This document shows, one piece after another, positions 17,176 to 31,828 of a stretch of 64,000 bases of DNA. The stretch is from an uncultured Thermodesulfobacteriota bacterium. Lineage in GTDB: Bacteria; Desulfobacterota; Desulfomonilia; UBA1062. The translations under genes and the position numbers were made by a program. Each line of letters starts with the position of its first letter. Position 1 is the stretch's first letter. The stretch lies in contig CALOBW010000055.1 in NCBI GenBank assembly GCA_942491525.1, positions 136,106 to 200,105 on the forward strand, in the 5' to 3' direction. The notes beneath the pieces were generated by a model, which worked only from the letters and a program-made list of their open reading frames with translations, was not told where the DNA came from and did no database searches.

Positions 17176-18102
17176 ATGAAGTGGGAAAAGATCGGTCATA
17201 TTTTTTGTGCTACTAATCAAAATGATTGGATGTATTCACATGCAATGATTCCTATTGCAGAGAATATTGAAGGTGATCTATTTCGAATATATTTTTCGCC
17301 GCGTGATAAATATAATAGAGGACATGGAGCATTTATAGAAATTGACATCAATGAACCTGAGAAAATTTTAAGAGTATCTGAGACTCCCATACTATCTCCA
17401 GGAGCGTTGGGGTGTTTTGATGATAGTGGTGCCTTGCCTAATTCAATTATCTGGGTTGGTGGTGAAAAATATCTTTACTATACGGGGATAAATTTAGGTG
17501 TAACTGTAAAAATTAGGAATTCAATTGGAATTGCGAAATGGGATGAGGAATTAGAGGTTTTTGAGAAATTATTTGAAGGCCCCATAATTGATAGAACCAG
17601 AAATCAACCCCATTTTGTGGCTACACCGGAAGTTCATTATCATAAAGGAATATACAAAGCCTGGTTTACTTCATGTGTTAGATGGAAGCAGGAGGGAGAT
17701 GATGTACGCCATTATTATAACCTTGAGTATGCTGAATCTAATAACGGAATTGATTGGGAACGAAATGGGACTATTGCTATAGATTTTGCGGATGATTATG
17801 AATATGCCCTCGGCGTTCCTCGTGTAATTGAAGATTCCGATTGCTATCGGATGTGGTTTTGTTCTAGGGCAACGAAATTTGTGGACACGTATAGAATACG
17901 ATATGCTGAATCTTTTGATGGTTATAATTGGCTTAGAAAAGATAATGAGGTAGGCATCGATGTGTCTGAATCTGGATGGGATAGTGAGATGATTTGTTAT
18001 CCTTTTGTTTTTGATCACAATGGGAAGCGATATATGCTTTATAATGGCAATGGCTATGGTAGCACAGGGTTTGGTTTAGCTATATTGGTTGATGATGAGT
18101 AA
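17176..18102 (+). CDS. predicted beta-propeller glycoside-hydrolase-like protein (GH43/GH130-like fold), function uncertain
   Basis: 308 aa soluble protein. Repeated hydrophobic/aromatic blade-like segments. Domain call is by pattern only. Confidence 0.35.
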   Translation: MKWEKIGHIFCATNQNDWMYSHAMIPIAENIEGDLFRIYFSPRDKYNRGHGAFIEIDINEPEKILRVSETPILSPGALGCFDDSGALPNSIIWVGGEKYLYYTGINLGVTVKIRNSIGIAKWDEELEVFEKLFEGPIIDRTRNQPHFVATPEVHYHKGIYKAWFTSCVRWKQEGDDVRHYYNLEYAESNNGIDWERNGTIAIDFADDYEYALGVPRVIEDSDCYRMWFCSRATKFVDTYRIRYAESFDGYNWLRKDNEVGIDVSESGWDSEMICYPFVFDHNGKRYMLYNGNGYGSTGFGLAILVDDE

Positions 18103-18108
18103 TAGCTA

Positions 18109-18501
18109 GTGAGTATGACTGCTGAATTTATAAATAAATTAGTTGCACATATATATATAGCAGGAACAATAGTTTTTACTCTTTATGGTCAGCTGATTAT
18201 TAAATGGAAAATGTCACAAGTTGGGAATTTGCCAGATCACTTTATCGAGAAAACAACCTTTTTGTTTATGCAATTTTTAAATCCCTGGATAATCTCTGGC
18301 TTTATATCGGCTTTTATTGCATCTCTTTGCTGGATGGCAGCAATGACAAAGTTTGAGCTTAGTTATGCCTATCCATATATGGGATTGTCATTTATTCTAA
18401 TTATGATTTCTAGTGCATTACTATTTCATGAACCAATTTCAGTATATAAGCTTGCCGGGCTTATATTAGTTGTGAGTGGAATTGTAGTTGGGGCGCAATG
18501 A
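18109..18501 (+). CDS. small 4-TM membrane protein, ArnE/ArnF- or GtrA-like flippase subunit candidate
   Basis: 130 aa, four predicted TM helices, SMR/DMT-like size. Sits next to the GT2 polyprenyl-P glycosyltransferase. Confidence 0.5.
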   Translation: MSMTAEFINKLVAHIYIAGTIVFTLYGQLIIKWKMSQVGNLPDHFIEKTTFLFMQFLNPWIISGFISAFIASLCWMAAMTKFELSYAYPYMGLSFILIMISSALLFHEPISVYKLAGLILVVSGIVVGAQ

Positions 18502-19376
18502 ACTATTGCTGTAACTGTCAGAGTTACTTGGTCAATGATGTTGCAATGTGTTCAGTATGTGGATATCAGCCAAAAGTTGTGAATGATATTCCTGTTTATG
18601 CCTCAGAACTTGCTGACGATAATGATGGATTCAGTTCAGATGACCATGTTTTCTTAACAGAAGTTGAAAATGGGCATTTTTGGTTTGAAAATAGAAACCT
18701 TGTCTTAAGGTGGATATTGCAGAAGTTTTTTCCGCAAATGGGATCATTTTGCGAAGTAGGTTGTGGTACCGGTTTTGTCTTAAGGGAGATTGCTAAATCT
18801 TTTCCTGACGTGAAATTGTTTGCAAGTGACATTTATGTGAATGCTCTTTCTTTTGTTCAGAAGAAGGTTCCTAATGCAAAATTGTTTCAGTCTGATCTTA
18901 TGCAATTTCCGTATATTGAGAAATTTGATGTTGTAGGAGCATTTGATGTTATCGAGCATATTGATGATGATGTCGGTGCACTTGAGAGTATCTATCGGTC
19001 GTTAGTAGTTGGCGGTGGTGTCGTTATTACGATTCCGCAACACAAGTGGCTGTGGTCTGTTCAGGATATCAGTAGTTGTCATAAGCGACGGTATTATCGC
19101 AAAGATATCATTGATAAGATGGAGTCGGTAGGGTTTCGTGTTCTTAAGGTAACCTCATTCGTAAGCTTATTGCTACCACTTATGATTGTTTCGCGCCTTT
19201 TATTTCTAAAAAGAGTTGATTCAAATTCTAGAAATGAATTCGAATTGTCTACTATTGTTAATAAATTATTGGGGGCAATCTGTCGGATTGAAAGAGTAAT
19301 CATTAAATTAGGGCTAGATTTTAGCGTGGGGGGATCACTTTTGGTTGTCGCGGTGAAGGATGAAAATACCGTTTAA
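18498..19376 (+). CDS. class I SAM-dependent methyltransferase with N-terminal Cys4 zinc-ribbon (Trm112-like)
   Basis: N-terminus CCNCQSYL...CSVCGYQPKVVNDIPVY, then MTase motif I EVGCGTGFVL and post-I acidic DIYVN. Confidence 0.75.
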   Translation: MNYCCNCQSYLVNDVAMCSVCGYQPKVVNDIPVYASELADDNDGFSSDDHVFLTEVENGHFWFENRNLVLRWILQKFFPQMGSFCEVGCGTGFVLREIAKSFPDVKLFASDIYVNALSFVQKKVPNAKLFQSDLMQFPYIEKFDVVGAFDVIEHIDDDVGALESIYRSLVVGGGVVITIPQHKWLWSVQDISSCHKRRYYRKDIIDKMESVGFRVLKVTSFVSLLLPLMIVSRLLFLKRVDSNSRNEFELSTIVNKLLGAICRIERVIIKLGLDFSVGGSLLVVAVKDENTV

Positions 19377-20496
19377 CAAGCCGTTTATTGTTGGTGACGA
19401 GATTGAAAATATCGTCCATGCCGTAAATGCCAATGGCTGGCTCGCCGGTGATGGTGATTTTACAAATAAGTGCCACACTTGGCTCGAATCATATTTGGGG
19501 TGTACAAAAGCTCTTCTCACCCATTCCTGTACCTCTGCGTTAGAGATGGCAGCTATTCTTTGTGATATACAGCCGGGTGATGAAGTAATAATGCCGTCAT
19601 ACACGTTTGTCTCCACGGCAAATGCTTTTGTATTGCGGGGTGGTGTACCTGTATTTGTTGATATCAGACCAGATACTTTGAATATAGATGAATCATTAAT
19701 CGTACCAGCAATAACAGAGAAGGCTAAAGCTATTGTGCCAGTTCATTATGCCGGAGTTCCTTGTGCCATGGACGAGATAATGGATATTGCTCGGCAATAT
19801 GATCTTTTTGTTATTGAGGATGCTGCCCAGGCTTTGTTGTCAACTTATAAAGGGCGGCATCTTGGAACGATTGGGGATTTGGGCACCCTAAGTTTTCATG
19901 AAACAAAGAATGTTATCAGCGGAGAGGGAGGGGCTCTGCTGATCAATAATGAAAAGTATATTGAACGTGCAGAAATCATAAGAGAGAAAGGTACAAATCG
20001 TAAACAGTTTTTTCGAGGACATATTGATAAATATACTTGGGTCGATGTGGGATCATCTTATCTGCCAAGTGAAATGATAGCAGCGTTTCTCTACGCGCAA
20101 CTTCAACAGTCAGAGAAGATTATTAAAAAGCGTTGTGCGCTATATAATCGATATGATGAGATGTTAAGACCTCTAGAGTCCCAGGGGAAGATTCGCTTGG
20201 CACGTTCTCATGCGCAAGATATAAAAAATAATGGGCATATTTTTTATATTATTACTAACAATCCAGAAGAGCGGAGTCAGTTAATAAGCTATTTAAATAA
20301 TAGATCAATAAATTCGGTCTTCCATTATGTCCCTTTGCATTCATCGCCAGCCGGAAAGAAATACGGGCGTGCTGTAGGGACGATGCAGTGTACAGATGAC
20401 TTGAGTGATCGAATATTACGTTTGCCGCTCTATTATGAGATGCAGGATAATGATGTCTGCAAAGTATCGTTAGCTGTTATTGATTTTTTCAGTTAG
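19360..20496 (+). CDS. DegT-family NDP-4-keto-6-deoxyhexose 4-aminotransferase (WecE/ArnB-like)
   Basis: MKIPFNKPFIVGDEIENIV...SCTSALEMAA...LSFHETKNVISGEGG (PLP-Lys). Confidence 0.85.
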   Translation: MKIPFNKPFIVGDEIENIVHAVNANGWLAGDGDFTNKCHTWLESYLGCTKALLTHSCTSALEMAAILCDIQPGDEVIMPSYTFVSTANAFVLRGGVPVFVDIRPDTLNIDESLIVPAITEKAKAIVPVHYAGVPCAMDEIMDIARQYDLFVIEDAAQALLSTYKGRHLGTIGDLGTLSFHETKNVISGEGGALLINNEKYIERAEIIREKGTNRKQFFRGHIDKYTWVDVGSSYLPSEMIAAFLYAQLQQSEKIIKKRCALYNRYDEMLRPLESQGKIRLARSHAQDIKNNGHIFYIITNNPEERSQLISYLNNRSINSVFHYVPLHSSPAGKKYGRAVGTMQCTDDLSDRILRLPLYYEMQDNDVCKVSLAVIDFFS

Positions 20497-20508
20497 GAAA
20501 TATTATTT

Positions 20509-21327
20509 ATGGATTTAAAATTAGAGAAAATTGATAAGATCATTCCGTCAGATAGAGAATTTTCTATTCAGAATAATGCACGTAGTTATTTGTCTGGAAA
20601 TCGTATCCCCTGTGGCAGTGCTGGGGCTGGACTTATGGCAAAGGTCCAGGATCTCACTAAAAAGCATGGAAAAGTTTATTATTGGTTAATAAAACTGTTT
20701 GCACCAGTGTTGGTAAGTGCGGCATATCAGAAAAATATAGCTAATTTATTGGGTAATAATGGAAGAGACAAGGTCATTATCAATTTGGGAAGTGGGCCTA
20801 ACATATTTATGAACCGTAAAGATATTATCAATGTAGATATCTTCGCCTTTGATGAAGTTGATATTGTGGCTGATGCGTCAAATCTTCCTATAGAAGATGG
20901 TACTGTAGATTTAATAATTAATGCAGCAATGATGGAACATGTATCTAATCCTCAGAAAATTGTAAGTGAGATGTACAGGATCTTAAATTCAGAAGGAAAG
21001 ATTTTCTCATATTTGCCATATATAGTTCCATATCACGCAGCTCCACATGATTATCAGAGGTGGTCTAAATCTGGTGTAGAAGAACTTTTTTCTGGTTTTA
21101 GTAATGTAGAGGTAGGCATTGGTGCTGGCCCAACATCAGGTATGCTATGGGTTCTCCAGGAGTGGTTGGCAATTCTCTTCTCACTTGGGAATAAGACCCT
21201 GCACGACCTGCTCTTCATGATATTAATGTTATTAACCTCTCCAATTAAACTATTTGATATTGTTCTGGAGAAATTTCCTTATGCTGAAAAGATTGCAAGT
21301 GGCTTTTATATAGTTGCAGAAAAATAG
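20509..21327 (+). CDS. class I SAM-dependent methyltransferase (Methyltransf_11-like)
   Basis: INLGSGPN glycine-rich motif I, VDLIINAAMMEHVSNPQKIVSEMYRILNSEGKIF. Confidence 0.7.
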   Translation: MDLKLEKIDKIIPSDREFSIQNNARSYLSGNRIPCGSAGAGLMAKVQDLTKKHGKVYYWLIKLFAPVLVSAAYQKNIANLLGNNGRDKVIINLGSGPNIFMNRKDIINVDIFAFDEVDIVADASNLPIEDGTVDLIINAAMMEHVSNPQKIVSEMYRILNSEGKIFSYLPYIVPYHAAPHDYQRWSKSGVEELFSGFSNVEVGIGAGPTSGMLWVLQEWLAILFSLGNKTLHDLLFMILMLLTSPIKLFDIVLEKFPYAEKIASGFYIVAEK

Positions 21328-23260
21328 ACTAATAATGGTAGACAAGTCAAAGGGTATTAGTTTCGTTGGCCATCAACTGGTAGATGGTATAAAGGTTTCA
21401 GATGAATCTTTAAATTTTCTATTTGGGGCACTTTTATTAACCTCTTTTGGAGTTTTTGTTGCAGGGAATATACTGCTTTGGGACTTTGTAATTTTTGCAC
21501 GTTCTGCGCAGATAGCACTACCTTGTTTTATTCTGCTTTTAATATTCTATTCATTATCTAGACAGTTATGCCCCATCTGGGGGTTAGTGCTGACTTATCT
21601 CATGATTTGGGCAGGAGTCTATAGCTCTTTGCCTGGATTACGGTATGTTTTCTATGTCTTGGGTTTTTTTGCGGTGCTATATTCGGCCCGTTTTTTGCGT
21701 GTTGCGCAAAAAGATTGGCTGTCACTAGCCTTAATGGCTATGATTGGGACTGCGACTATACTCGGCGTTGAACGAGCTTACACATCGTTTGACATGTTGC
21801 CACGCCTTTATATGGGGGCTGTCCATCAGGATACTTTGTTTCATGCAAGTATCGCTGGGATGATTAAAAACTATGGTGTGGTATCTACTGGATTGCATGG
21901 TTTGGTTGAAATTGCATATCACACCTTTTCACATGTCTTGATGGCGGGTGTCAGTGTGATGTCGGGCTTGGGTGTTGTAGAGGTGTATGGAGTTGCCCCG
22001 TGGGTCTTGTTTGCGCCAATCCTGATATTTAGTTCTACCGTATTTGTAGCAATGCTGGATAGGCAAGAGCAGATGTCAATGCCCTTAGTGTGGGCAGTGA
22101 CGGCATTGATTCTTTCAGTGGCGCCATATTTACTCTCAAATTGGGCGGTGTGGCAATCATATTTTATTTCCGAGTCATATATGGTTTCACTTGGGCTATT
22201 TTTGTTGGGGATGGGACTACTCTTTAAGCGTACATTGCGTCTTCAGGATTTGCTGCTTGTTTTTCTGTTGACTGCACTGATGGCGAAGGCAAAGTCTTCA
22301 GTGGGTGTTATCTATATGGGGCTCTGGTTTTCACGAGTTCTTTTTATTTCCGGTGGGCGTCGGATGTTTGATTTGGGAGTATTAATGATGTCCGCGGTTG
22401 CAGTTGGTTGGGTGACCTTTGATGCCGCTGCATGGTTTGTGACATATGCAGAACCCTTACGCATTTTCGGTTTCATAGAGAAGAACGGATTGTTGGGTGG
22501 TCATCTTGTCATGGTAATGGATGGATTACTTGGTGATTCGGCTTTGTCAGTCGGTATGATGTCCATGGCAGTGGTGGCCATCATAAGCTTTTTTATTCTG
22601 CACTTTCTTCCTTCATGGGTAGTGATTTGTCGAGCTTGCTGGGTTGATGGTGTAAGAAATATTTTTCGTAATCCGTTGGCTGTATATTCAATGGCAGCTT
22701 TGTTTGCTGGAATGATTGTTGTCACTTCGGACTATTTTGGTGGTGCTACCTTTTATTTTTCAAATGTAGCGTTCTTTGTGGCACTGCCTGGTGTGGTTAT
22801 GATAATCGTTGCCTGTTGTCAGCGTCTGTCGTTGAATAATTGCGCGTTAATCGCTGTAACAATCGTTATTATCGGCATTATTCATTATCCGGCATATTAT
22901 GGTAAAAGTATATTTGATCGTCAGCGTAATGGTTTGCGGGGGGCTTCTACTATTCATCTACAAGAGACGTCAGATACTTTAATTGATCGGCTGTTGATAA
23001 TACGTCAGACTTCACCTAAGGATGTGGCATTGCGAGCTAATGATGATATATTACGTGATAATCCAATGCGTTCTTGCACAGCCCAGCCATTTCTTTTTCC
23101 GGCTGTTTCAGAGCGGCCATGGGTTGGTGTGATTCAAAGAGGTGGTAGTTGTCAGTATCGTGCATATGGATATGATTCATATGGGGTAACGATTGATGAT
23201 CCAGAAGTTAAAGTGCTGCCTCAATTGCATCCTTCTATGCAGATTCAGGATGTATGGTAA
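21314..23260 (+). CDS. large polytopic membrane protein (about 14+ TM) with C-terminal soluble domain; GT-C-like glycosyltransferase candidate
   Basis: 648 aa, hydrophobic helices throughout the first ~520 aa, ~100-aa hydrophilic C-terminus. Architecture like ArnT/GtrC/AftD-type GT-C enzymes. Confidence 0.45.
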   Translation: MQKNRLIMVDKSKGISFVGHQLVDGIKVSDESLNFLFGALLLTSFGVFVAGNILLWDFVIFARSAQIALPCFILLLIFYSLSRQLCPIWGLVLTYLMIWAGVYSSLPGLRYVFYVLGFFAVLYSARFLRVAQKDWLSLALMAMIGTATILGVERAYTSFDMLPRLYMGAVHQDTLFHASIAGMIKNYGVVSTGLHGLVEIAYHTFSHVLMAGVSVMSGLGVVEVYGVAPWVLFAPILIFSSTVFVAMLDRQEQMSMPLVWAVTALILSVAPYLLSNWAVWQSYFISESYMVSLGLFLLGMGLLFKRTLRLQDLLLVFLLTALMAKAKSSVGVIYMGLWFSRVLFISGGRRMFDLGVLMMSAVAVGWVTFDAAAWFVTYAEPLRIFGFIEKNGLLGGHLVMVMDGLLGDSALSVGMMSMAVVAIISFFILHFLPSWVVICRACWVDGVRNIFRNPLAVYSMAALFAGMIVVTSDYFGGATFYFSNVAFFVALPGVVMIIVACCQRLSLNNCALIAVTIVIIGIIHYPAYYGKSIFDRQRNGLRGASTIHLQETSDTLIDRLLIIRQTSPKDVALRANDDILRDNPMRSCTAQPFLFPAVSERPWVGVIQRGGSCQYRAYGYDSYGVTIDDPEVKVLPQLHPSMQIQDVW

Positions 23261-23328
23261 TGAAATTTGAAATATCTACCATTTAGTAATCAAATTGTTT
23301 TAGTGTCAGATGTAAGGATATCTTAGTA

Positions 23329-24612
23329 ATGTCAAAAAAAGTTTTATTCTGGGATTCATGGACAAGGGGTATTCATAACTTTATCCCGATTGCTGATAAG
23401 TTGAGAAAAAATGACGACTCTTGTCTTCTGGTACATAGAGGATCCTGGGGGAGTGAAGAAGGTAGGCCTACTGAAGAGTATATTGAAGGTCTGCTTGTCC
23501 GTGATATCTCTTATTACAATACAAGCTTTGTTTATAAAGTAATAAAAGAAGAGAAGCCGGATTGTGTTCTTATTTTAACTACCTCCTACTTTATGGATAG
23601 AGCTATAATACTGGCCTGCAGGGCTTTAGGGGTGAAAAGTTTTTTTCTGATGCATGGAATTCGTGCTGTTGGAGATAATTTATCTGAGAGTGTGACAGTA
23701 CTTGAAGATGATTTGCGGAAGAAAAGATGGAGCAGAGGTTGGAAATATTTGCGTTATACGCTTCCAAATTATTTTGTTTCAGGAACCTTTAGTGATGCCT
23801 TTTTCCCCTTTCGTATTTCACCTTATAAATTGATATTGGGAACATTCCTGAATCCTGCCAAGTATTTGTTTATGCCCCCGCCAAGTAGTGAGATGTATTG
23901 TGACGTTGGTTTGATCTGGGCCAATGAATATGTATCTCTTTTTAGAGATCAGTTTGGTTATCCTGAAGAAAGGCTTAAGGTTGTTGGGCATCCACCATTG
24001 GATGATGTTTTTGGGAAGAAGAACGGGCCGTTAAATCCAACAGAGCGAGAAACCTTGTTGGAATCCATAGGACTAACTGTCGATTGTGATTATACACTAT
24101 ATCTTGAAGATGCCTTTGTTGAGTCAGGGTTTGAGGGTTGGACAGATGAATCCCGACGGCAACATTTATCAGAGATTGCAATCGCAGTAAAAAAAGCAGG
24201 TAAAAGTTTAGTCATCAAGGTTCATCCTGGCACTAAAGATGATAGGCTTGAATCCATATTTGATAATGATGACCATGTTGCTGTTGTTAGAAAGGGCGAA
24301 TTGCCCCTGTACATTAAAAATGCAGAATCATGTATTGCACATATTTCATCTACTGTTAACTTGGCGATCTGCTTCGAGAAGATGGTTTTAGTTCCAACGT
24401 GGGGAATCTCTTGTAGTGTTCCGGATTATTTTGTTAAATCGGGAGTAGCTGTTGGCTGTGATAATCCCGGTGAACTAGAATTTAATCTTTGTAACTTACA
24501 AGACCAGCAAGAGACACTCCATAAAACAAGACAAGATTATATTGATCGATTCATCACTTATACTGACGGCAAGGCCGTTGATCGTATTGTAGGTGCGATT
24601 GTCGGTGACTAA
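23329..24612 (+). CDS. hypothetical GT-B-like protein; candidate CMP-nonulosonate (Leg/Pse/Kdo-type) glycosyltransferase
   Basis: 427 aa soluble. LVIKVHPGTKDD (K-x-HP motif recurrent in CMP-sugar dependent GT-B transferases and capsule polymerases). No other family signature recognised. Confidence 0.3.
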   Translation: MSKKVLFWDSWTRGIHNFIPIADKLRKNDDSCLLVHRGSWGSEEGRPTEEYIEGLLVRDISYYNTSFVYKVIKEEKPDCVLILTTSYFMDRAIILACRALGVKSFFLMHGIRAVGDNLSESVTVLEDDLRKKRWSRGWKYLRYTLPNYFVSGTFSDAFFPFRISPYKLILGTFLNPAKYLFMPPPSSEMYCDVGLIWANEYVSLFRDQFGYPEERLKVVGHPPLDDVFGKKNGPLNPTERETLLESIGLTVDCDYTLYLEDAFVESGFEGWTDESRRQHLSEIAIAVKKAGKSLVIKVHPGTKDDRLESIFDNDDHVAVVRKGELPLYIKNAESCIAHISSTVNLAICFEKMVLVPTWGISCSVPDYFVKSGVAVGCDNPGELEFNLCNLQDQQETLHKTRQDYIDRFITYTDGKAVDRIVGAIVGD

Positions 24613-25873: not shown

Positions 25874-25918
25874 ATGTAGGTTTCGATTGTGCGTTTGAGT
25901 AAATGAATTGGAGATCAA

Positions 25919-26986
25919 GTGATGAATAAATCGATGTATTACAATTTATGTTGCCCTAATTGTAGAGGTGACTTCAATTTTTTTTGTCTCGCAAATGGTT
26001 GCGATGGCGAAGATGGATTATTGAAATGTGTCTGTTGTGACTCAATTTTCCCTGTTATTGATGACATCCCAATATTATTTAAAGATTCAGTGCGAAATTA
26101 TAGTTATGAAAAGTTATTTTTCCAAAAACTCAGGTGTTATAATATTTCCAAAGAATTATGTTTTCAAATTGATCATCAACTAGTAAAAATGGCAGAGAAT
26201 AATTCAGATGATGTGTGGGAATGGGAAGAGTTTGCGTTTTGGGATAAACAGTACCAGTCCCAATGGGAAAAACTTCTTACTGATGATTTTAATGATGCAG
26301 TATATCAAGAACGAATTTTGCAGCGCGCAAAAGAGATGTCCATTATGACACAACCCAATTTTTTCCCCGATGGTTTCTTTTTAGAGGCTGGAGCAGGTAC
26401 AGCTATATATACTAGATCTATTTTGTCAAGATATCCTAATAATGGATATATTGCAGTTGATATGAGTTTTTTTGCTTTAAAGATAAGGCGAAAATTGTTG
26501 GCGAAGTCTGATGCATTCTTCATAATGGCTTCTGTTGATAATATTCCTCTTAAGAGGAATATTATATCAGGTATGTTTTTGATAGGAATATTGCATCATG
26601 CCGAAAGAAAGGAAAACACTCTGCAAGATTTGGTGCAGTATTTATGTCCTCAGGGGTGTATATATTTGGATGAAGTTTTAGAGCGGCCTTCTTTTTTGAA
26701 GCATGCAGAGATTGTTAAAGGCAAAGATGTTAGTTTACATGAAGAATGGATTCATTATGAATCGCTAATGGCAATACTTAGTAGCAATGGACGGATCATA
26801 TATAATGTCATATTTAATACTCCTTTTTATCAGTTTGCGTTGAAATACTTGAAGGGACTTATGACCCGTAATCAGCGCACTTACAGCATATTTAGATTAT
26901 TCGATGATGTCTTTAGAAAGATGCTTGGGAATATATTGCCTTCATTTCAGGCAGGAGAAATTGCTGTTATTTGGCGGAATGACTAA
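25919..26986 (+). CDS. class I SAM-dependent methyltransferase with N-terminal Cys4 zinc-ribbon (Trm112-like)
   Basis: CCPNCRGDF...CVCCDSIFPVIDDIPILF ribbon, then LEAGAGTAIY motif I and VDNIPL acidic motif. Confidence 0.75.
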   Translation: MMNKSMYYNLCCPNCRGDFNFFCLANGCDGEDGLLKCVCCDSIFPVIDDIPILFKDSVRNYSYEKLFFQKLRCYNISKELCFQIDHQLVKMAENNSDDVWEWEEFAFWDKQYQSQWEKLLTDDFNDAVYQERILQRAKEMSIMTQPNFFPDGFFLEAGAGTAIYTRSILSRYPNNGYIAVDMSFFALKIRRKLLAKSDAFFIMASVDNIPLKRNIISGMFLIGILHHAERKENTLQDLVQYLCPQGCIYLDEVLERPSFLKHAEIVKGKDVSLHEEWIHYESLMAILSSNGRIIYNVIFNTPFYQFALKYLKGLMTRNQRTYSIFRLFDDVFRKMLGNILPSFQAGEIAVIWRND

Positions 26987-27716
26987 TAAGGAGGTAGCTT
27001 TGGGTATTATAACTGATTATTATGATCGAACATCAGATCGCTTTTGGGACCCTCTGGGAGGTTTAGTAGGTCGGGACGCAGTCATTGCTCCATTAATTGA
27101 TGATCGAGCTGGCAACTTTCTGGAATATGGATTTGGCAGTGGCTCATTGCTGTTTAATGTTGCGCAGAACTATAATTTCAAAAAGGTCATTGGTATTGAT
27201 ATTAGTGAAACGGTTGTTAAGAAAGCGAAACTAAGTTTAGCTGATGTTGATGGTGCCTGGAAAGATAATATTGAGTTTTCATTGCCTGTGAATGATACAT
27301 TGCCTGGTTGTGGAGATAAATCCGTAGATGTAATAGTGAGTGTGGCAACGATTGAGCATGTATTGAATCCATATGTTGTATTGGATGAATTAAACCGAAT
27401 TGCCAAAGATGGAGCTCAGCTGATCTGTTCGGTTCCTAATTACGCCTATCTGAAGCATAGAATTTCTTTATTGATTGGAGATTTGCCGAAGACTGGCACT
27501 GATGCACCGGTCTCGGAGTGGCGTGAGGCTGGTTGGGATGGGATGCATCTTCATACATTTACTCAAGATGCATTTGCTACCTTATTACGTGATTGTGGCT
27601 GGGAACCAGTAAGTTGGACAGGTTGGGGTATGCGTGCACCATTACTAAAACCACTAAGGCAAAAATTTCCTCAATTATTTTCCGGTGAGTTAATCGCTTG
27701 TTGTTCAAAGATGTAA
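26979..27716 (+). CDS. class I SAM-dependent methyltransferase
   Basis: Start set to ATG 26979 with AAGGAGG SD (8-nt overlap with upstream stop). LEYGFGSGSL motif I, VIGIDISE, IVSVATIEHVLNP. Confidence 0.7.
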   Translation: MTNKEVALGIITDYYDRTSDRFWDPLGGLVGRDAVIAPLIDDRAGNFLEYGFGSGSLLFNVAQNYNFKKVIGIDISETVVKKAKLSLADVDGAWKDNIEFSLPVNDTLPGCGDKSVDVIVSVATIEHVLNPYVVLDELNRIAKDGAQLICSVPNYAYLKHRISLLIGDLPKTGTDAPVSEWREAGWDGMHLHTFTQDAFATLLRDCGWEPVSWTGWGMRAPLLKPLRQKFPQLFSGELIACCSKM

Positions 27717-28928
27717 TTGTTTCTTGATTTATTAATGAAATATACCCTATCAAAAAAGAAGTTACTATTCATATTGCTGCTTATTTTCTTCCTCCCGATT
27801 TCAACCCCGGGAGGAATTTCTGCAAATTATTTGTATGCTGTACTGTTTCTTATCTGCCCGTTCCTGCCATATCGGCAGATGCCATTGATGGCGATAATGC
27901 TATTAGTAATAAGTTTTTTGTCTTATGGTTTAGGTTATATATTTATTGCTGATTTTGGATTTAACTTTGCAATACGGCAAACTTTTAGTTTCATAGTATT
28001 TATTGTAGGGGTATTGTTACTTCTTATTAATATTCCCTACTCATTGGATGATATATGTCGCGGTGTAGTGATTATTAGTGTTATGTATGCCATATTAGTT
28101 GTAGTGACTGTAGTAGTATATCCGCAATTCTCCCTTTCTGATCCCTATTTAATTAAAGGTGGTTTACGTGAATATGTACCCCACTGGCCTCAACGGTTTA
28201 CCGTTATTGTGGGCTTTGGTTTTTTTTGCGCAATTGTAAAGATGTTTTCAGATTGGCGATATATCGTTGTTGCAGCGGGGTTAATTATCTGTCTTTTTCT
28301 GACATTCAGCAGGGCAATTTATTTGTCAGTTGTCATTGGCGTGTTTGCATTATTAGTTCAACTTCTACTTTACCCTTCTGCATTGGAGATTCCCAATCTG
28401 CGTAGGAAGATCGTTCTGTATTTAGGTGTTGCTGGTATTGGACTGATTCTTGTCTGTATGCTTAATCCAGCCATTCTGACTAATGTCAGTAACATTAGTC
28501 TTCGTACATATAATAGCATAGTCAATTTTGGGGGCGGTGCGCACGTCATGGCGGCTGGTTCTGATTCTGAAAGAATGTATTTCTGGTCAAATATTATAAA
28601 GGTTTGGCGTGACTATCCCGTATTGGGGACTGGATTTGCCAATATCTATCTTTTTAATCCTAAGATAGGATCAGCCCATAACCAATATTTGGATATACTT
28701 TTAAGGACAGGTCTTATCGGTTTGGTTATCTATCTTTCTCTTTGGATGAAGCTGTTTTGTACTTACTGGAAGAGGCGGCCTGATATTTTTTCAGGATTGG
28801 TTATGATTTTTATATTTGGATTTTTTCATGAAACTACAAAGCTAAGCTATACAGGTTTGTTGTTTTTCCTGTTACTGAATAAAGCTTATGAAATGGATCG
28901 CTGTGCAAGAATGCATAAGGGGGCTTAG
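27717..28928 (+). CDS. O-antigen ligase/polymerase family membrane protein (Wzy_C domain)
   Basis: About 10 TM helices. Periplasmic loop with GTGFANIYLF...GSAHNQYLDILLRTGLIGLVIY, typical of the O-antigen ligase/Wzy_C family. Confidence 0.7.
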   Translation: MFLDLLMKYTLSKKKLLFILLLIFFLPISTPGGISANYLYAVLFLICPFLPYRQMPLMAIMLLVISFLSYGLGYIFIADFGFNFAIRQTFSFIVFIVGVLLLLINIPYSLDDICRGVVIISVMYAILVVVTVVVYPQFSLSDPYLIKGGLREYVPHWPQRFTVIVGFGFFCAIVKMFSDWRYIVVAAGLIICLFLTFSRAIYLSVVIGVFALLVQLLLYPSALEIPNLRRKIVLYLGVAGIGLILVCMLNPAILTNVSNISLRTYNSIVNFGGGAHVMAAGSDSERMYFWSNIIKVWRDYPVLGTGFANIYLFNPKIGSAHNQYLDILLRTGLIGLVIYLSLWMKLFCTYWKRRPDIFSGLVMIFIFGFFHETTKLSYTGLLFFLLLNKAYEMDRCARMHKGA

Positions 28929-28934
28929 TGTAGT

Positions 28935-30815
28935 ATGTGTGGTATAGCGGGTGTGTGGTCTAGCAAAAAACCAGTTAGTCAAGGTTTGTTGTATGCAATG
29001 CAGGAACAGATGGCCTCACGTGGACCGGATGCTAATGGTGTATGGATCTCCGATGACAGAATGGTTGGTTTGGCGCATTGTCGTCTCTCAATTATTGACC
29101 TTTCTGAGAATGGCAGCCAACCCATGGTTTATCAAAACAGGTGGTCTATAACTTATAATGGTGAACTATATAATTATCTTGAAATAAAAAAAGAACTTGA
29201 AGATGCTGGTTTCGCTTTTCGTGGTGGAAGTGATACCGAAGTGGTCTTGGTTGCATATGTGAAGTGGGGTGTTGATTGCCTGAGTCGTTTTAACGGGATG
29301 TTTGCCTTTGCCATATATGATCAGCAGGAGCAACGCTTCTTTCTGGCCAGGGATCATCAAGGAATAAAGCCCCTATATTATCATTGTTCAGAAAGATTAT
29401 TTGCCTTTGCGTCAAGGTTGTCGCCTTTGCTGGTGCATTCGGATATTTCACGTGATATTGACGAACAGGCTTTAAGTTATTATCTTGAGGTTGGTTTTGT
29501 TCCGCATGATAATTCAATATTTAAGTCGCTAAAAAAACTATCTCCAGGTCATTTTCTGACTATTGATAGAGATCGGCATGTGTCAGTTGAGCGTTACTAT
29601 CAACCATCGTTAGATGAAGTTTGTGTTGAGCAACGCTCGTCTCATAGTTGGGTGGATGCTTTAGAAGGGAAAATATCGCAATCAGTTAAACGTCAGATGG
29701 TCGCTGATGTGCCCATTGGTGTGTTTTTGTCGGGGGGAATTGATAGTTCGGTTGTTGCTGCTATGATGCAGCAACATAGTTCCGCTCCTATACATTCATT
29801 TTGTGTTGGATTTGATCAAGATGGTTACGATGAATCCTTCCACTCACGTAATGTTGCAGAATATCTTGGTACCAATCATCATGAAATTCGTTTCTCTCCA
29901 GATGCCCTAATAGGGTTGCTGGATGAATATACTCAACACTATGATGAACCCTTTGCTGATTGGTCCGCTTTGCCCATGATGGCTGTCTCTCGATTTGCCA
30001 GGGAAACTGTAACTGTTTGCCTTGGGGGAGATGGTGGAGATGAGTTGTTTGGAGGATATAAATATTATCGATATCTGAAGTTAATGGAACCAATATTAAG
30101 ATTGCCTGTGGGTCTTCGTTCTTGTCTTGTGAATGAGTTTCTGAAGAAGATTAATGTTCGCCATAAGCATAGGTTGCTATTAAAAGCGTTATCAGAGGAG
30201 GATGCTGTAAAATGCTTTGGTTTCATGCGTTCCATGATTAAAGATTATTCATTGACTAGTTTGTTGAATTTTGAAAGTCAGCAAAGACTTGCTGAATTAT
30301 TTGGTGAACGGTTAGAGTTAAGTGCCGGATATGATGTTCTTAGCTGGAGTGGCAGGATTGATAGTGACATTTACCTTGTCGATGATATTCTGCAGAAAGT
30401 TGATGTTGCAAGCATGGCATTCTCTTTGGAATCAAGAGTACCATTATTAGACCGAGAGGTTGTAGATTTTGCAACAGCAGTACCTTCGCAGCTTAAAATT
30501 CGAGGGAATGTAACGAAATGGATCTTAAGAGAAGTCCTTTACCGTCATGTTCCTCGTGCAATAGTTGATCGACCAAAAGCCGGGTTTAATGTTCCCATAC
30601 GAGAGTGGTTCAGAGGTGAGCTGAAAGAGCTTCTGCTGGATGAACTTTCTCAATCTAGAGTTAGACAGTTTGGATATATTGAAACGGATGGTGTTCAGGT
30701 GCTAATCAATAAGCATTTGGATGGGGCTATGGATACTCATCCGATGCTTTGGGTCTTAATGAGTTTGTTGCGATGGCATACGAGCGTAAGAGATGTACCT
30801 CGTTATAATCAATAA
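28935..30815 (+). CDS. asnB: asparagine synthase (glutamine-hydrolysing), polysaccharide-cluster type
   Basis: N-terminal MCGIAG nucleophile, SGGIDSS PP-loop in synthetase domain. Confidence 0.9.
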   Translation: MCGIAGVWSSKKPVSQGLLYAMQEQMASRGPDANGVWISDDRMVGLAHCRLSIIDLSENGSQPMVYQNRWSITYNGELYNYLEIKKELEDAGFAFRGGSDTEVVLVAYVKWGVDCLSRFNGMFAFAIYDQQEQRFFLARDHQGIKPLYYHCSERLFAFASRLSPLLVHSDISRDIDEQALSYYLEVGFVPHDNSIFKSLKKLSPGHFLTIDRDRHVSVERYYQPSLDEVCVEQRSSHSWVDALEGKISQSVKRQMVADVPIGVFLSGGIDSSVVAAMMQQHSSAPIHSFCVGFDQDGYDESFHSRNVAEYLGTNHHEIRFSPDALIGLLDEYTQHYDEPFADWSALPMMAVSRFARETVTVCLGGDGGDELFGGYKYYRYLKLMEPILRLPVGLRSCLVNEFLKKINVRHKHRLLLKALSEEDAVKCFGFMRSMIKDYSLTSLLNFESQQRLAELFGERLELSAGYDVLSWSGRIDSDIYLVDDILQKVDVASMAFSLESRVPLLDREVVDFATAVPSQLKIRGNVTKWILREVLYRHVPRAIVDRPKAGFNVPIREWFRGELKELLLDELSQSRVRQFGYIETDGVQVLINKHLDGAMDTHPMLWVLMSLLRWHTSVRDVPRYNQ

Positions 30816-30838
30816 ATTCTTATTCGGGAGATTCTGTC

Positions 30839-31828
30839 ATGAAAAAATGGTTACTGGATATAATAGTTTGTCCTTCATGTAAGGAAAGCTTGGCAGCTAA
30901 AGGCCCTTGGGTAAATGACGAAATAATTGAGGGAGAGTTGTTCTGTGAGCGATGTCAGATGAAGTGGCCTGTTGTTGGTGGAATCCCGCGCTTTGTTGAT
31001 GTTGGTGATGGATATTGTGAAAATTTTGGACAACAATGGAATCGGTTCAAAAAGACGCAGATTGATTCCTTTAGTGGTAACACCCATTCAAAAGATAGAT
31101 TTTGTGCTGAAACTGGTTGGTCAAAGGATTTTCTAAAGGATGCCTTAGTATTAGATGCAGGATGTGGATCAGGCCGTTTCGCCGATGTGGCTATTGATAT
31201 GGGAGCTCGAGTAATTTGTATTGATATGAGTAGTGCAGTGGATGCCTGCAAGGGTAATTTATCAGAGAATCATGACTCAGATAGATTTGAGGTTGTTCAG
31301 GCATCTATATATGAGTTGCCTTTCGCGGAGTGTATTTTTAAAGGGGTGTACTCTTTGGGGGTTATTCAGCATACCCCTGATCGTAAAGGAGCAGTACAAT
31401 CTCTTATAAAATATGTTGCTAAAGACGGGGAATTGGCTTTGTGGGTATACGAGAAAAGTTGGCGCAGTTTATTGGGGTATAAATATTGGTTTAGATTGAT
31501 TACAAAATATTTACCCTTAATTGTAAATTGGAAGTTGAGCAATATATTAGTAAACATATTTTTCCCAATAGCTTGGTATTTTAATAAACTTCCCAAATTT
31601 GGCCATTATTTGACGCGATTACTGCCTATGGCATTTCGATATACAGGAAGCATGACCAAGATACAGAGTAAAGAATGGTCACTATTGGACACCTTTGATA
31701 ACTTGTCTCCTCGTTATGATTTTCCAATTACAGAAAGATCTCTTCAAGATTGGATCAATGGGTCTGGGTTGATATTTTCAGGAAGGCGCCCAACACCGGG
31801 GTTAGCTGTTACTGCTCGGCGTGGCTGA
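30839..31828 (+). CDS. class I SAM-dependent methyltransferase with N-terminal Cys4 zinc-ribbon (Trm112-like)
   Basis: IVCPSCKESL...CERCQMKWPVVGGIPRFVD ribbon. LDAGCGSGRF motif I. ICIDMS. Confidence 0.75.
   Translation: MKKWLLDIIVCPSCKESLAAKGPWVNDEIIEGELFCERCQMKWPVVGGIPRFVDVGDGYCENFGQQWNRFKKTQIDSFSGNTHSKDRFCAETGWSKDFLKDALVLDAGCGSGRFADVAIDMGARVICIDMSSAVDACKGNLSENHDSDRFEVVQASIYELPFAECIFKGVYSLGVIQHTPDRKGAVQSLIKYVAKDGELALWVYEKSWRSLLGYKYWFRLITKYLPLIVNWKLSNILVNIFFPIAWYFNKLPKFGHYLTRLLPMAFRYTGSMTKIQSKEWSLLDTFDNLSPRYDFPITERSLQDWINGSGLIFSGRRPTPGLAVTARRG

What the first reader, a model, noticed from the sequence alone, without database searches (positions are those of the whole stretch)
18498..31828. 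Five SAM methyltransferases, three sharing an N-terminal Cys4 zinc-ribbon, in a locus whose ABC exporter has a terminal-cap binding domain
Methyltransferase genes sit at 18498, 20509, 25919, 26979 and 30839. Three begin with a Trm112-like ribbon C-x2-C-x15-20-C-x2-C followed by I-P: CCNCQ...CSVCG, CCPNCRG...CVCCD, CPSCKE...CERCQ. They appear to be paralogs. In ABC-transporter-dependent O-antigen pathways, chain length is set by a terminal methyl or phosphomethyl cap that the Wzt C-terminal module recognises. The Wzt here (524..1837) has a roughly 180-aa extension of that type. The methyltransferase density suggests either multiple O-methylated sugars or a non-canonical capping system. The zinc-ribbon plus methyltransferase architecture is not the WbdD kinase-methyltransferase type.
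Basis: partly seen in the sequence, partly recalled or inferred. Interest (0 to 1): 0.65.

Follow-up and report, generated by a model that had tools for sequence, protein, structure and literature searches.

The report
Sugar methyltransferases in polysaccharide gene cassettes
The five methyltransferase genes are real, but they sit in two gene cassettes that recur in other bacteria alongside a flippase and polymerase, so they most likely methylate sugars of a surface polysaccharide rather than cap the separate polymer exported by the neighbouring ABC transporter.

Summary
The sequence features are real. All five genes encode class I SAM methyltransferases. Three carry an N-terminal Cys4 ribbon. 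The Wzt ATPase carries a Pfam Wzt_C domain.

The proposed link between the methyltransferases and Wzt capping is not supported:
- wzm/wzt lie in a divergent minus-strand operon. An identical contig extends it 7.7 kb beyond the window and shows glycosyltransferases, epimerases and an amidotransferase, but no methyltransferase.
- The methyltransferases sit in a plus-strand run of genes with Wzz, Wzx, Wzy and legionaminic-acid genes.
- They fall into two conserved cassettes. MT1 and MT2 travel with WbqC, an ArnC-like GT2, a VioB-like acetyltransferase, an ArnF-like protein, WecE and a 648-aa membrane protein. MT3, MT4 and MT5 travel with Wzx, Wzy, an AsnB-like amidotransferase and a GT4. In three other loci the genes are 40-62% identical, Wzy included.
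- A true Wzm/Wzt pair lies near an MT5 relative in 1 of 47 loci. An AsnB-like gene lies nearby in 40 of 47.

The five are not recent paralogs (about 20-25% core identity). The MT3 and MT5 ribbons are Trm112-type. The MT1 ribbon is shorter, with four invariant cysteines. Fusion of Trm112 to a methyltransferase is already described, though its function in bacteria is unstudied. The substrates remain unknown. Overall this is an ordinary finding of modest interest.

The parts
524..1837 (-). Wzt: ABC ATPase with a C-terminal Wzt_C carbohydrate-binding domain. It belongs to a separate divergent operon.
   Evidence: Pfam ABC_tran 83.5 bits and Wzt_C 44.2 bits. Matches full-length Aquifex Wzt 8dku at E 3.5e-69. 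The C-terminal domain alone has no PDB sequence match.
1840..2667 (-). Wzm: ABC-2 permease.
   Evidence: Pfam ABC2_membrane 70.2 bits.
2798..3913 (-). GT4 glycosyltransferase, first visible gene of the ABC operon.
   Evidence: Pfam Glycos_transf_1. The operon continues in L004.
5328..6278 (+). Wzz chain-length determinant, at the head of the plus-strand gene run.
   Evidence: Pfam Wzz 49.1 bits.
6288..14858 (+). Legionaminic-acid-type nonulosonic acid genes: LegB, LegC, a PglD-like acetyltransferase, a NeuB-type synthase, an NTP-transferase with a CBS domain, an SDR, an aminotransferase and a CMP-sugar synthetase.
   Evidence: NCBIfam LegB 553.9 bits (cut-off 475) and LegC 551.5 bits (cut-off 420). 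Pfam NeuB, CTP_transf_3 and NTP_transferase+CBS.
14884..18501 (+). Upstream half of cassette 1: WbqC, an ArnC/PgfS-like GT2, a NeuD/PglB/VioB acetyltransferase, a GH130-like 308-aa protein and an ArnF-like small EamA protein.
   Evidence: The same gene order occurs in L009, L010 and L011.
18498..19376 (+). MT1: short Cys4 ribbon (CxxC-x10-CxxC), a class I methyltransferase domain and a hydrophobic C-terminal segment.
   Evidence: Pfam. C4, C7, C18 and C21 are invariant in 79 homologs. Family of 3855 hits. AF2 pLDDT 91.7. Hydrophobic segment at residues 218-236.
19360..20496 (+). WecE-type dTDP-4-amino-4,6-dideoxyhexose transaminase.
   Evidence: NCBIfam NF008687 595.8 bits, cut-off 375.
20509..21327 (+). 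MT2: class I methyltransferase with a hydrophobic C-terminal segment and no ribbon.
   Evidence: Pfam Methyltransf_11 42.5 bits. Hydrophobic segment at residues 235-253. A similar gene follows the DegT gene in L010 and L011.
21314..23260 (+). 648-aa polytopic membrane protein (about 11 hydrophobic segments), a candidate GT-C-like transferase for cassette 1.
   Evidence: No Pfam or NCBIfam match. Hydrophobic-segment count. A 665-aa protein with no Pfam match occupies the same position in L010 and L011.
23329..24612 (+). 427-aa TagF-like (Glyphos_transf) protein, first gene of cassette 2.
   Evidence: 34-37% identical to proteins in L003 and L006 that carry PF04464.
24593..25873 (+). Wzx flippase.
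   Evidence: Pfam Polysacc_synt 53.8 bits.
25919..26986 (+). MT3: divergent Trm112-like ribbon plus a class I methyltransferase domain. Member of a small family.
   Evidence: hhalign to the MT5 ribbon gives 99.1% probability. The word-indexed search finds 12 hits. The full HMMER search finds 450 representatives.
26979..27716 (+). MT4: MetW-like class I methyltransferase with no ribbon.
   Evidence: Pfam Methyltransf_23 60.6 bits and MetW. 60-62% identical orthologs in L003 and L005.
27717..28928 (+). Wzy polymerase.
   Evidence: Pfam Wzy_C 64.2 bits. 40-42% identical in L003, L005 and L006.
28935..30815 (+). AsnB-like glutamine amidotransferase, directly upstream of MT5.
   Evidence: Pfam Asn_synthase 337.9 bits. 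An AsnB-like gene is found within 10 kb of 40 of 47 MT5-family loci and is directly upstream in 26-28 of 68.
30839..31828 (+). MT5: Trm112p zinc knuckle fused to a class I methyltransferase domain.
   Evidence: Pfam Trm112p 32.1 bits. Residues 1-51 match Haloferax Trm112 6zxw_H at E 4.9e-7. AF2 pLDDT 95.8, pTM 0.93. Family of 2576 hits.
31841..39091 (+). Remainder of cassette 2: GT4, a bi-domain ADH/GFO oxidoreductase, a heparinase II/III-like protein, UDP-GlcNAc 2-epimerase and a second GT4.
   Evidence: Orthologs 43-62% identical in L003, L005 and L006.
39941..43084 (+). WbpL-like initiating transferase and WbpM-like dehydratase, closing the plus-strand cluster.
   Evidence: Pfam Glycos_transf_4 and Polysacc_synt_2 (401 bits).

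Best explanation
The window is most of a polysaccharide super-locus of at least 60 kb. It holds at least three assembly systems, and the five methyltransferases belong to one of them, not to the ABC system.

The plus-strand run from wzz (5328) to the wbpM-like gene (43084) encodes a Wzx/Wzy-dependent heteropolysaccharide that is chain-length regulated by Wzz and contains a legionaminic-acid-type sugar. Two conserved cassettes within it supply the methyltransferases.

Cassette 2 (23329-39091) contains MT3, MT4 and MT5. It is inherited as a unit with Wzx, Wzy, an AsnB-like amidotransferase, a GT4, a bi-domain oxidoreductase and a heparinase-like protein. I infer that these three soluble enzymes methylate sugars of the repeat unit on the cytoplasmic side. 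The substrate could be a nucleotide sugar or the undecaprenyl-PP-linked unit, and methylation would occur before Wzx flips the unit and Wzy polymerises it. MT5 is probably coupled to the AsnB-amidated sugar and to the downstream GT4.

Cassette 1 (14884-23260) contains MT1 and MT2. Its genes resemble a three-component side-branch system. WecE and a VioB-like acetyltransferase would make a 4-acylamino-4,6-dideoxyhexose. An ArnC-like GT2 would load it onto polyprenyl phosphate. An ArnF-like protein would flip it. The 648-aa membrane protein would transfer it in the periplasm. MT1 and MT2 each have one hydrophobic C-terminal segment, so I infer they act at the membrane on this sugar or its lipid-linked form.

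The Cys4 ribbon is a Trm112-type zinc knuckle fused in cis. By analogy with Trm112-methyltransferase complexes, it most likely stabilises or activates the catalytic domain. It is not a Wzt-related feature.

Shown: domain identities, gene order and the conservation of both cassettes. Inferred: substrates, methylated positions, timing and the role of the ribbon.
For: - Gene map and domains. Plus-strand genes from 3978 to 48677 are separated by at most 121 nt or overlap. No intergenic terminator stands out.
- Cassette 2 recurs in L003, L005 and L006. Identities to the window are Wzy 40-42%, MT4 60-62%, MT3 about 50%, MT5 48-60%, GT4 53-56% and ADH/GFO 61-62%.
- MT5-family neighbourhoods in 47 loci from many phyla: an AsnB-like gene in 40; only L051 carries both a Wzt and a Wzm match. 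Pfam on the neighbouring membrane proteins gives Polysacc_synt 18, Wzy_C 12 and ABC_tran 1.
- Cassette 1 recurs in Cupriavidus basilensis (L009) and in metagenome loci L010 and L011. In metagenome contigs, MT1 relatives have the ArnC-like GT2 upstream in 24 of 35 and WecE downstream in 11 of 21. A Wzt-like hit occurs in 2 of 18.
- Family assignments for WecE, the VioB-like acetyltransferase, the ArnC/PgfS-like GT2, the ArnF-like protein, LegB and LegC.
- The ABC operon, extended 7.7 kb by the identical contig L004, contains no methyltransferase or kinase.
- Ribbons. In the MT5 model, pLDDT is about 98 over residues 1-50 and whole-chain pTM is 0.93, which suggests the ribbon docks on the catalytic domain.
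Against: - No substrate is identified. Fold searches return only generic class I methyltransferases: TM 0.4-0.55, with the glucose O-methyltransferases AtmM and RebM on top for MT5.
- The Wzt domain implies a terminal cap, yet no terminator gene is visible in its operon, so a trans-acting enzyme cannot be excluded.
- One Acidobacteriota locus (L051) has the same layout as the window. It carries very similar wzm/wzt genes (286 and 363 bits) lying divergently 8 kb from an MT5 homolog.
- The GT-C assignment of the 648-aa protein rests only on its topology and position.
- Detection of Wzx, Wzy and small flippases by phmmer is insensitive. The Pfam census covers 84 ORFs chosen by a crude hydrophobicity filter.
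Confidence: 0.7

Rival explanations
1. One or more of the ribbon methyltransferases acts in trans as the chain terminator of the ABC-dependent glycan. It would add the terminal methyl cap that the Wzt C-terminal domain recognises.
For: - Wzt has a Wzt_C domain, and such domains bind terminal caps, including 3-O-methyl sugars (PMC9445017).
- No methyltransferase or kinase is seen in 7.7 kb of the ABC operon downstream of wzt.
- L051 repeats the wzm/wzt and MT5-homolog neighbourhood.
Against: - The methyltransferases are on the opposite strand, 16-30 kb away, packed among Wzx, Wzy and Wzz.
- Their orthologs co-occur with Wzx and Wzy, and both Wzt and Wzm were matched near an MT5 relative in 1 of 47 loci; a Wzt-like ATPase near an MT1 relative in 2 of 18.
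- In the alignment to Aquifex Wzt, the tryptophan I take to be the Trp362 methyl-pocket lid falls in a gap (residue numbering from PMC9445017).
- The cap could be a distinct sugar added by one of the operon's four glycosyltransferase-like proteins, as with Kdo caps (PMC9445017).
Confidence: 0.08
2. MT3, MT4 and MT5 tailor the legionaminic acid residue itself. For example, they could N-methylate an acetimidoyl group made by the amidotransferase, as proposed for Campylobacter PtmG/PtmH (from my own knowledge, not checked here). In this model they do not act on other repeat-unit sugars.
For: All four close loci (L001/L002, L003, L005, L006) carry NeuB and CMP-sugar synthetase genes next to the methyltransferases and the AsnB-like gene. 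MT1 weakly matches the pseudaminic-acid-associated methylase model TIGR03587 (34 bits, cut-off 112).
Against: In the wider MT5 family, a NeuB-like gene is nearby in only 4 of 47 loci, whereas AsnB is nearby in 40 of 47. The amidotransferase is the full glutamine-dependent AsnB/WbpS type, not the PseA/WbpG type.
Confidence: 0.15
3. Some of the methyltransferases do not act on glycans. They could modify a lipid carrier, a protein of the assembly machinery or a small molecule, and are carried in the locus for regulatory or unrelated reasons.
For: Sequence and fold matches are generic. They include BioC, UbiG, phosphoethanolamine N-methyltransferases, FPP methyltransferases and a partner of archaeal Trm112. 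Classical Trm112 partners modify the translation apparatus (PMC5372719).
Against: Both cassettes keep the methyltransferases between sugar-nucleotide enzymes, glycosyltransferases, Wzx and Wzy across phyla. No translation-related neighbours were seen.
Confidence: 0.07

Closest known systems
Trm112-methyltransferase holoenzymes of eukaryotes and archaea, and the N-terminal Trm112-methyltransferase fusions noted in archaea and some bacteria (Bourgeois et al. 2017, PMC5372719)
   Same: MT5 residues 1-51 match Pfam Trm112p and the solved Haloferax Trm112. MT3 shares the same ribbon. As in the fusions described in the review, the ribbon sits at the N-terminus of a class I methyltransferase domain.
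   Different: Classical partners methylate tRNA, rRNA or release factors. Here the fusions sit in polysaccharide clusters beside AsnB-like and GT4 genes. Activation by the ribbon is inferred, not tested. The review states that the function of bacterial Trm112 proteins is unknown.
WbdD chain terminators (E. coli O9a kinase-methyltransferase, O8 methyltransferase) acting with a Wzt that carries a carbohydrate-binding domain
   Same: A Wzt with a Wzt_C domain is present in the window, and SAM methyltransferases lie within the same super-locus.
   Different: There is no kinase domain, and the proteins are 245-355 aa. They lie on the other strand in a Wzx/Wzy gene run, and their families are not co-inherited with wzm/wzt.
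Three-component extracytoplasmic glycosylation systems (GtrA/GtrB/Gtr*, ArnC/ArnE-F/ArnT, Citrobacter ORF12-15; Kelly et al. 2024, PMC11127046)
   Same: Cassette 1 has an ArnC/PgfS-like GT2, an ArnF-like small EamA protein and a large polytopic membrane protein. It also has the enzymes needed to make the donor sugar.
   Different: It carries two methyltransferases, WbqC and a GH130-like protein, none of which belong to the described systems. The matches to ArnC and ArnF are below the NCBIfam cut-offs. The 648-aa protein matches no GT-C family model.
Sugar O-methyltransferases AtmM and RebM (indolocarbazole glucose 4'-O-methyltransferases)
   Same: They are the best sequence and fold matches for the MT5 catalytic domain (6uv6 at E 2.1e-8; Foldseek rank 1-4).
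   Different: Identity is only 16-17% and TM 0.4-0.5. They have no ribbon and lack the MT5-specific C-terminal region. The resemblance is at the level of the general class I fold.

Membership tests
Class I SAM-dependent methyltransferases | Rossmann-like methyltransferase domain with the glycine-rich SAM-binding motif I | tested here: met
   All five score above Pfam gathering cut-offs: Methyltransf_11, _23, _25, _12 or _31. Motif I reads VGCGTG, LGSGPN, AGAGTA, YGFGSG and AGCGSG in MT1 to MT5 (translations).
Trm112p-like zinc knuckle (PF03966) | Profile match to the Trm112p domain, for MT5 | tested here: met
   32.1 bits against a cut-off of 22, residues 3-48. NCBIfam Trm112_arch E 1.3e-12. 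PDB 6zxw_H E 4.9e-7.
Trm112p-like zinc knuckle (PF03966) | Profile match to the Trm112p domain, for MT3 | tested here: inconclusive
   No Pfam hit at E <= 0.01. Trm112_arch E 2.6e-5, 24 bits, below its cut-off of 77. However, hhalign of the family ribbon to the MT5 ribbon gives 99.1% probability, E 6.9e-19. Four of its 11 homologs carry a precomputed PF03966 hit.
Trm112p-like zinc knuckle (PF03966) | Profile match to the Trm112p domain, for MT1 | tested here: inconclusive
   No Pfam or NCBIfam Trm112 hit. hhalign to the MT5 and MT3 ribbons gives 95% and 93% probability, with an 11-residue deletion. The Cys4 site is invariant with a 10-residue spacer. It is best described as a shorter zinc ribbon that may be related.
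Wzt with a carbohydrate-binding domain (PF14524) | ABC nucleotide-binding domain followed by a Wzt_C domain | tested here: met
   ABC_tran 83.5 bits and Wzt_C 44.2 bits (cut-off 30.4), residues 286-389. The beta-sandwich fold itself was not modelled. The domain alone finds no PDB chain by phmmer.
Wzt with a carbohydrate-binding domain (PF14524) | Methyl-cap pocket as in Aquifex Wzt (Leu300, Thr346, Ala348, Trp362; PMC9445017) | tested here: inconclusive
   The phmmer alignment to 8dku runs into the domain at low identity. The tryptophan I take to be Trp362 falls in a gap. The alignment is too weak there to decide.
WbdD-type terminator of ABC-dependent O-antigen synthesis | Kinase and/or methyltransferase module on a large multidomain protein, encoded with wzm/wzt and the polymerising glycosyltransferases | tested here: not met
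   No kinase domain. Sizes are 245-355 aa. The genes lie in the Wzx/Wzy gene run on the opposite strand. A wzm/wzt pair was matched near 1 of 47 MT5-family loci, and a Wzt-like ATPase near 2 of 18 MT1-family loci.
Wzx/Wzy-dependent polysaccharide cluster | Wzx flippase, Wzy polymerase, Wzz co-polymerase and an initiating transferase in one co-oriented cluster | tested here: met
   Polysacc_synt (24593), Wzy_C (27717), Wzz (5328) and Glycos_transf_4 (39941).
Three-component extracytoplasmic glycosylation system | Polyprenyl-phosphate sugar synthase (GT2), small flippase and a GT-C transferase | tested here: inconclusive
   The GT2 resembles PgfS (183 bits) and ArnC (110 bits), both below their cut-offs. 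The small EamA protein resembles ArnF (50 bits, cut-off 99). The 648-aa protein has about 11 hydrophobic segments but no family match.
Legionaminic acid biosynthesis | LegB dehydratase, LegC aminotransferase, NeuB-type synthase and CMP-sugar synthetase | tested here: met
   LegB 553.9 bits (cut-off 475) and LegC 551.5 bits (cut-off 420). Pfam NeuB 259.5 bits and CTP_transf_3 110 bits. The synthase is below the NCBIfam equivalog cut-offs, so the exact sugar is inferred.

The most novel reading that the evidence does not exclude
The AsnB-like amidotransferase, the Trm112-fused methyltransferase and the downstream GT4 may form a conserved three-gene glycan-tailoring unit found in many bacterial phyla. 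In this unit the methyltransferase would act on, or together with, the amidated sugar, for example a methylated uronamide. If so, this would assign a first function to a large family of bacterial Trm112-domain proteins: glycan modification rather than modification of the translation apparatus.
Probability: 0.25. Interest if true: 0.55.

Novelty: new member of a known kind. Interest (0 to 1): 0.3.

Why it matters
The result corrects a tempting misreading. A Wzt cap-binding domain and a dense set of methyltransferases lie in one window but belong to different assembly pathways.

It also gives a modest lead. Reviews state that the function of bacterial Trm112-like proteins is unknown and note only that some are fused to methyltransferases (PMC5372719). 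Here two large families of ribbon-methyltransferase fusions (2576 and 3855 database hits) are shown to sit in polysaccharide loci with fixed partners: AsnB plus GT4 for one, and ArnC-like GT2 plus WecE for the other. That makes their substrates testable. Heavily methylated, legionaminic-acid-containing surface glycans are also relevant to serotyping and phage or immune recognition.

Tried and rejected
- **Window proteins in the contig index.** Exact-sequence look-ups for MT5 and Wzt found nothing. The 90%-cluster representative of Wzt did work and gave L004.
- **Organism identity.** This failed. All window proteins checked are singletons or near-singletons without names. The best genome contigs relative of MT5 is 44% identical.
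- **Wzt C-terminal domain against PDB sequences.** No hit at E <= 1. The cap pocket could not be assessed.
- **Fold searches of the MT5 and MT1 models.** Only generic class I methyltransferases came back, with no clue to substrate. The afdb50 library was unavailable.
- **ops/JUMPStart motif GGCGGTAG.** There are three copies, all inside a GT2 gene at 51.5-51.9 kb on the minus strand. They arise from a repeated coding motif and are not regulatory.
- **Promoter and terminator scan of 14-33.5 kb.** Counts were not above shuffled expectation in any useful way.
- **Literature.** Searches for Trm112 with O-antigen or polysaccharide, and for WbqC with methyltransferase, found no relevant paper.
- **Recent paralogy of the five methyltransferases.** Rejected on BLASTP.
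- **MT3 as an orphan.** Rejected. It has 450 representative relatives at E <= 1e-3.

Full report
**Layout of the window.** Positions 1 to about 48,000 have 37-45% G+C, against about 58% further right. Nearly every gene up to about 59.4 kb is a polysaccharide gene.

On the minus strand at the left edge lie a GT4 (2798-3913), Wzm (1840-2667) and Wzt (524-1837). Everything from 3978 onward is on the plus strand, with intergenic gaps of at most 121 nt or overlaps. In order, the plus-strand genes are:
- a DegT aminotransferase and Wzz (5328);
- a legionaminic-acid gene set, with LegB and LegC above the NCBIfam cut-offs, a NeuB-type synthase and a CMP-sugar synthetase;
- WbqC, an ArnC/PgfS-like GT2, a NeuD/PglB/VioB acetyltransferase, a GH130-like protein and an ArnF-like small EamA protein;
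- MT1, WecE, MT2 and a 648-aa polytopic membrane protein;
- a TagF-like 427-aa protein, Wzx, MT3, MT4, Wzy, an AsnB-like amidotransferase and MT5;
- a GT4, a bi-domain ADH/GFO oxidoreductase, a heparinase II/III-like protein, UDP-GlcNAc 2-epimerase, a second GT4 and an epimerase;
- a WbpL-like initiating transferase and a WbpM-like dehydratase.

**Check of the observation.** All five methyltransferase ORFs match class I SAM methyltransferase models above the gathering thresholds.

MT1, MT3 and MT5 each open with two CxxC pairs, with spacers of 10, 21 and 21 residues.
- MT5 is a bona fide Trm112p domain. It scores 32.1 bits in Pfam against a cut-off of 22. It matches NCBIfam Trm112_arch at E 1.3e-12. 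Residues 1-51 match the solved Haloferax Trm112 chain 6zxw_H at E 4.9e-7.
- MT3 is a divergent copy of the same domain. Its direct matches are weak, but profile-profile comparison of the two family N-termini gives 99.1% probability.
- The MT1 ribbon is shorter. It aligns to the other two at 93-95% probability with an 11-residue deletion. Its four cysteines are invariant in 79 homologs.
- In the MT5 family the full Cys4 pattern is present in 84 of 120 members. In the MT3 family it is present in 10 of 12.

The five proteins are not recent paralogs. BLASTP finds only 20-33% identity over parts of the Rossmann core. MT1, MT3 and MT5 are nevertheless collinear over the ribbon and core at the profile level, with 97-99% probability.

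Wzt carries Wzt_C (PF14524, 44.2 bits, residues 286-389). Its whole length aligns to full-length Aquifex Wzt (8dku, E 3.5e-69). The C-terminal 163 aa alone finds no PDB chain. The tryptophan I take to be the Aquifex Trp362 methyl-pocket lid is not aligned (residues from PMC9445017). A cap-binding domain is therefore present, but the nature of its cap cannot be read from the sequence.

**The ABC operon.** The Logan contig L004 is 100% identical to window 1-4757 and extends 7.7 kb to the left. After wzt come a 468-aa GT4, a 443-aa protein and an epimerase/dehydratase. These are followed by a second AsnB-like amidotransferase, another epimerase and a 405-aa CgeB-like (Glyco_trans_1_2) protein. 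By eye the 443-aa protein appears related to the 405-aa one. No methyltransferase or kinase is present. The terminator of this pathway is therefore not visible. It could be one of these glycosyltransferase-like proteins adding a distinct terminal sugar (inference), or it could lie further left.

**Cassette 2 (MT3, MT4, MT5).** The closest MT5 and MT3 homologs sit in loci L003, L005 and L006, which share the window's gene set and nearly its order. That set comprises a TagF-like protein, a MetW-like methyltransferase, an MT3-like gene, Wzx, Wzy, AsnB, an MT5-like gene, GT4, ADH/GFO and a heparinase-like protein. Nonulosonic-acid genes lie next to it.

Identities to the window proteins are as follows.

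| Protein | Identity to window |
|---|---|
| MT4 | 60-62% |
| MT3 | about 50% |
| MT5 | 48-60% |
| GT4 | 53-56% |
| ADH/GFO | 61-62% |
| Wzy | 40-42% |

From general knowledge, Wzy polymerases are normally very divergent and specific for their repeat unit. Such conservation therefore argues that these loci build closely related repeat units and that the methyltransferases are part of that chemistry. L001 and L002 carry an MT5 ortholog (59% identity) among about seven methyltransferase-type genes, so loci with many methyltransferases recur.

**Wider MT5 family.** The word-indexed search returns 2576 hits. A genome scan finds at least 460 relatives across Acidobacteriota, Planctomycetota, Proteobacteria, Leptospira and other groups. 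In 47 loci of at least 18 kb:
- an AsnB-like gene lies within 10 kb in 40, and only L051 carries both a Wzt and a Wzm match;
- AsnB is directly upstream in 26-28 of 68 loci, and a GT4 is directly downstream in roughly 33 of 73;
- Pfam on 84 neighbouring membrane ORFs gives Polysacc_synt 18, Wzy_C 12, Polysacc_synt_3 11, PMT_2 10 and ABC_tran 1, and ABC2_membrane is not among the top 25 families.

The exception, L051, is an Acidobacteriota MAG. Its wzm/wzt genes are very similar to the window's (286 and 363 bits) and lie divergently 8 kb from the MT5 homolog. This keeps the trans-capping idea formally alive.

The MT3 family is small. It has 12 word-indexed hits and 450 representatives at E <= 1e-3 in the full search.

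**Cassette 1 (MT1, MT2).** The MT1 family has 3855 hits.
- In Cupriavidus basilensis (L009) an MT1 homolog follows WbqC, GT2, another methyltransferase, a hexapeptide transferase, a 301-aa protein and GtrA, and precedes a DegT gene.
- In metagenome loci L010 and L011 the order is WbqC, GT2, hexapeptide transferase, a 305-aa protein, a small EamA protein, an MT1-like gene, DegT, an MT2-like gene and a 665-aa protein with no Pfam match. This is identical to window 14884-23260.
- In 80 metagenome contigs, MT1 relatives have the GT2 upstream in 24 of 35. The VioB-like gene is upstream in 14, WbqC in 12 and the GH130-like gene in 11. WecE is downstream in 11 of 21, and a Wzt-like hit occurs in 2 of 18.

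WecE scores 596 bits (cut-off 375) and the acetyltransferase meets the NeuD/PglB/VioB model. The GT2 and the small protein resemble ArnC/PgfS and ArnF below their cut-offs. This matches the logic of three-component periplasmic glycosylation (PMC11127046), with added tailoring enzymes. MT1 and MT2 each have one strongly hydrophobic C-terminal segment, whereas MT3, MT4 and MT5 have none. This fits action at the membrane, but that is inference.

**Structure.** AF2 models are confident: MT5 has pLDDT 95.8 and pTM 0.93, and MT1 has pLDDT 91.7. High confidence over the MT5 ribbon (pLDDT about 98 for residues 1-50), together with the high whole-chain pTM, suggests the ribbon is docked on the catalytic domain. 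I could not inspect the interface. Foldseek against the PDB returns generic class I methyltransferases. For MT5 the top hits are AtmM and RebM. For MT1 they include phosphoethanolamine N-methyltransferases, an archaeal Trm112 partner and FPP methyltransferases. All have TM scores of 0.4-0.55. This gives no handle on substrate.

**Comparison with known systems.** N-terminal fusion of Trm112 to a methyltransferase is described for archaea and noted for 'some bacteria'. [quoted passage not shown] JGI annotations of MT5 homologs already read 'YbaR (Trm112 family)/SAM-dependent methyltransferase'. I found no paper linking such fusions to glycan clusters. The enzymes are not WbdD-like.

**Verdict.** The sequence observations hold, with two corrections: the ribbon spacing differs in MT1, and the five are not recent paralogs. 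The interpretation that ties the methyltransferases to Wzt capping is not supported. The methyltransferase density is explained by two conserved cassettes lying side by side in a Wzx/Wzy-dependent, legionaminic-acid-type polysaccharide locus. The mildly novel residue is that large, uncharacterised families of ribbon-methyltransferase fusions have fixed glycan-pathway partners, notably the AsnB, Trm112-methyltransferase and GT4 arrangement.

Noticed in passing
L004:4758-12460 (left of window position 1): A Logan contig is 100% identical to window 1-4757 and extends the wzm/wzt operon by 7.7 kb. It adds a GT4, two related CgeB-like proteins (443 and 405 aa), two epimerases and a second AsnB-like amidotransferase. 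No methyltransferase or kinase terminator is present despite the Wzt cap-binding domain.
   Followed up: partly
window 28935-32983; loci L012-L091: The gene order AsnB-like amidotransferase, Trm112-fused methyltransferase, GT4 recurs across many phyla. AsnB lies within 10 kb in 40 of 47 loci and directly upstream in 26-28 of 68. A GT4 lies directly downstream in about 33 of 73. The function of this unit is unknown.
   Followed up: partly
window 14884-23260; L009, L010, L011: A conserved nine-gene cassette: WbqC, ArnC-like GT2, VioB-like acetyltransferase, a GH130-like protein, an ArnF-like protein, MT1, WecE, MT2 and a membrane protein of about 650 aa with no family match. It looks like a three-component periplasmic glycosylation system for a 4-acylamino-4,6-dideoxyhexose. 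The large membrane protein may represent an unclassified GT-C-like family.
   Followed up: partly
L051:3-1949 and 9986-10984: An Acidobacteriota MAG carries wzm/wzt genes very similar to the window's (286 and 363 bits). They lie divergently 8 kb from an MT5 homolog, the same layout as the window. It is the only such case among 47 loci. It could reflect horizontal transfer of a larger block.
   Followed up: partly
window 27717-28928: The Wzy polymerase is 40-42% identical to Wzy proteins in three unrelated metagenome loci. This is unusually high for Wzy and implies nearly the same repeat unit in different organisms.
   Followed up: partly
window 1-48000 versus 48000-64000: G+C is 37-45% across the first 48 kb of polysaccharide genes and about 58% to the right. 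This suggests horizontal acquisition of the left-hand clusters. All window proteins checked are singletons or near-singletons at 90% identity, so the host lineage is poorly sampled and I could not identify it.
   Followed up: partly
window 43206-59409: A further polysaccharide region at higher G+C. It contains a GFO/hexapeptide fusion, a second Wzx (44802) and a 412-aa ten-segment membrane protein that may be a second Wzy (46268). It continues with a GT4, two GT2s and a Bac_transf initiating transferase (52033). It ends with an MBOAT (53464) and two Acyl_transf_3 O-acyltransferases (57353, 58378). A tadA-like deaminase follows at 59402.
   Followed up: partly
window 18498-19376 and 20509-21327: MT1 (residues 218-236) and MT2 (residues 235-253) each have one strongly hydrophobic C-terminal segment, with Kyte-Doolittle mean about 2.0 over 19 residues. 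The motif TSFVSLLLPLM is nearly invariant in the MT1 family. It may be a membrane anchor.
   Followed up: no
window 51546-51895 (minus strand): Three exact copies of the ops-like octamer GGCGGTAG occur within 350 nt, against 0.7 expected. They lie inside a GT2 coding region and come from a repeated coding motif on the plus strand, so they are probably not regulatory.
   Followed up: yes
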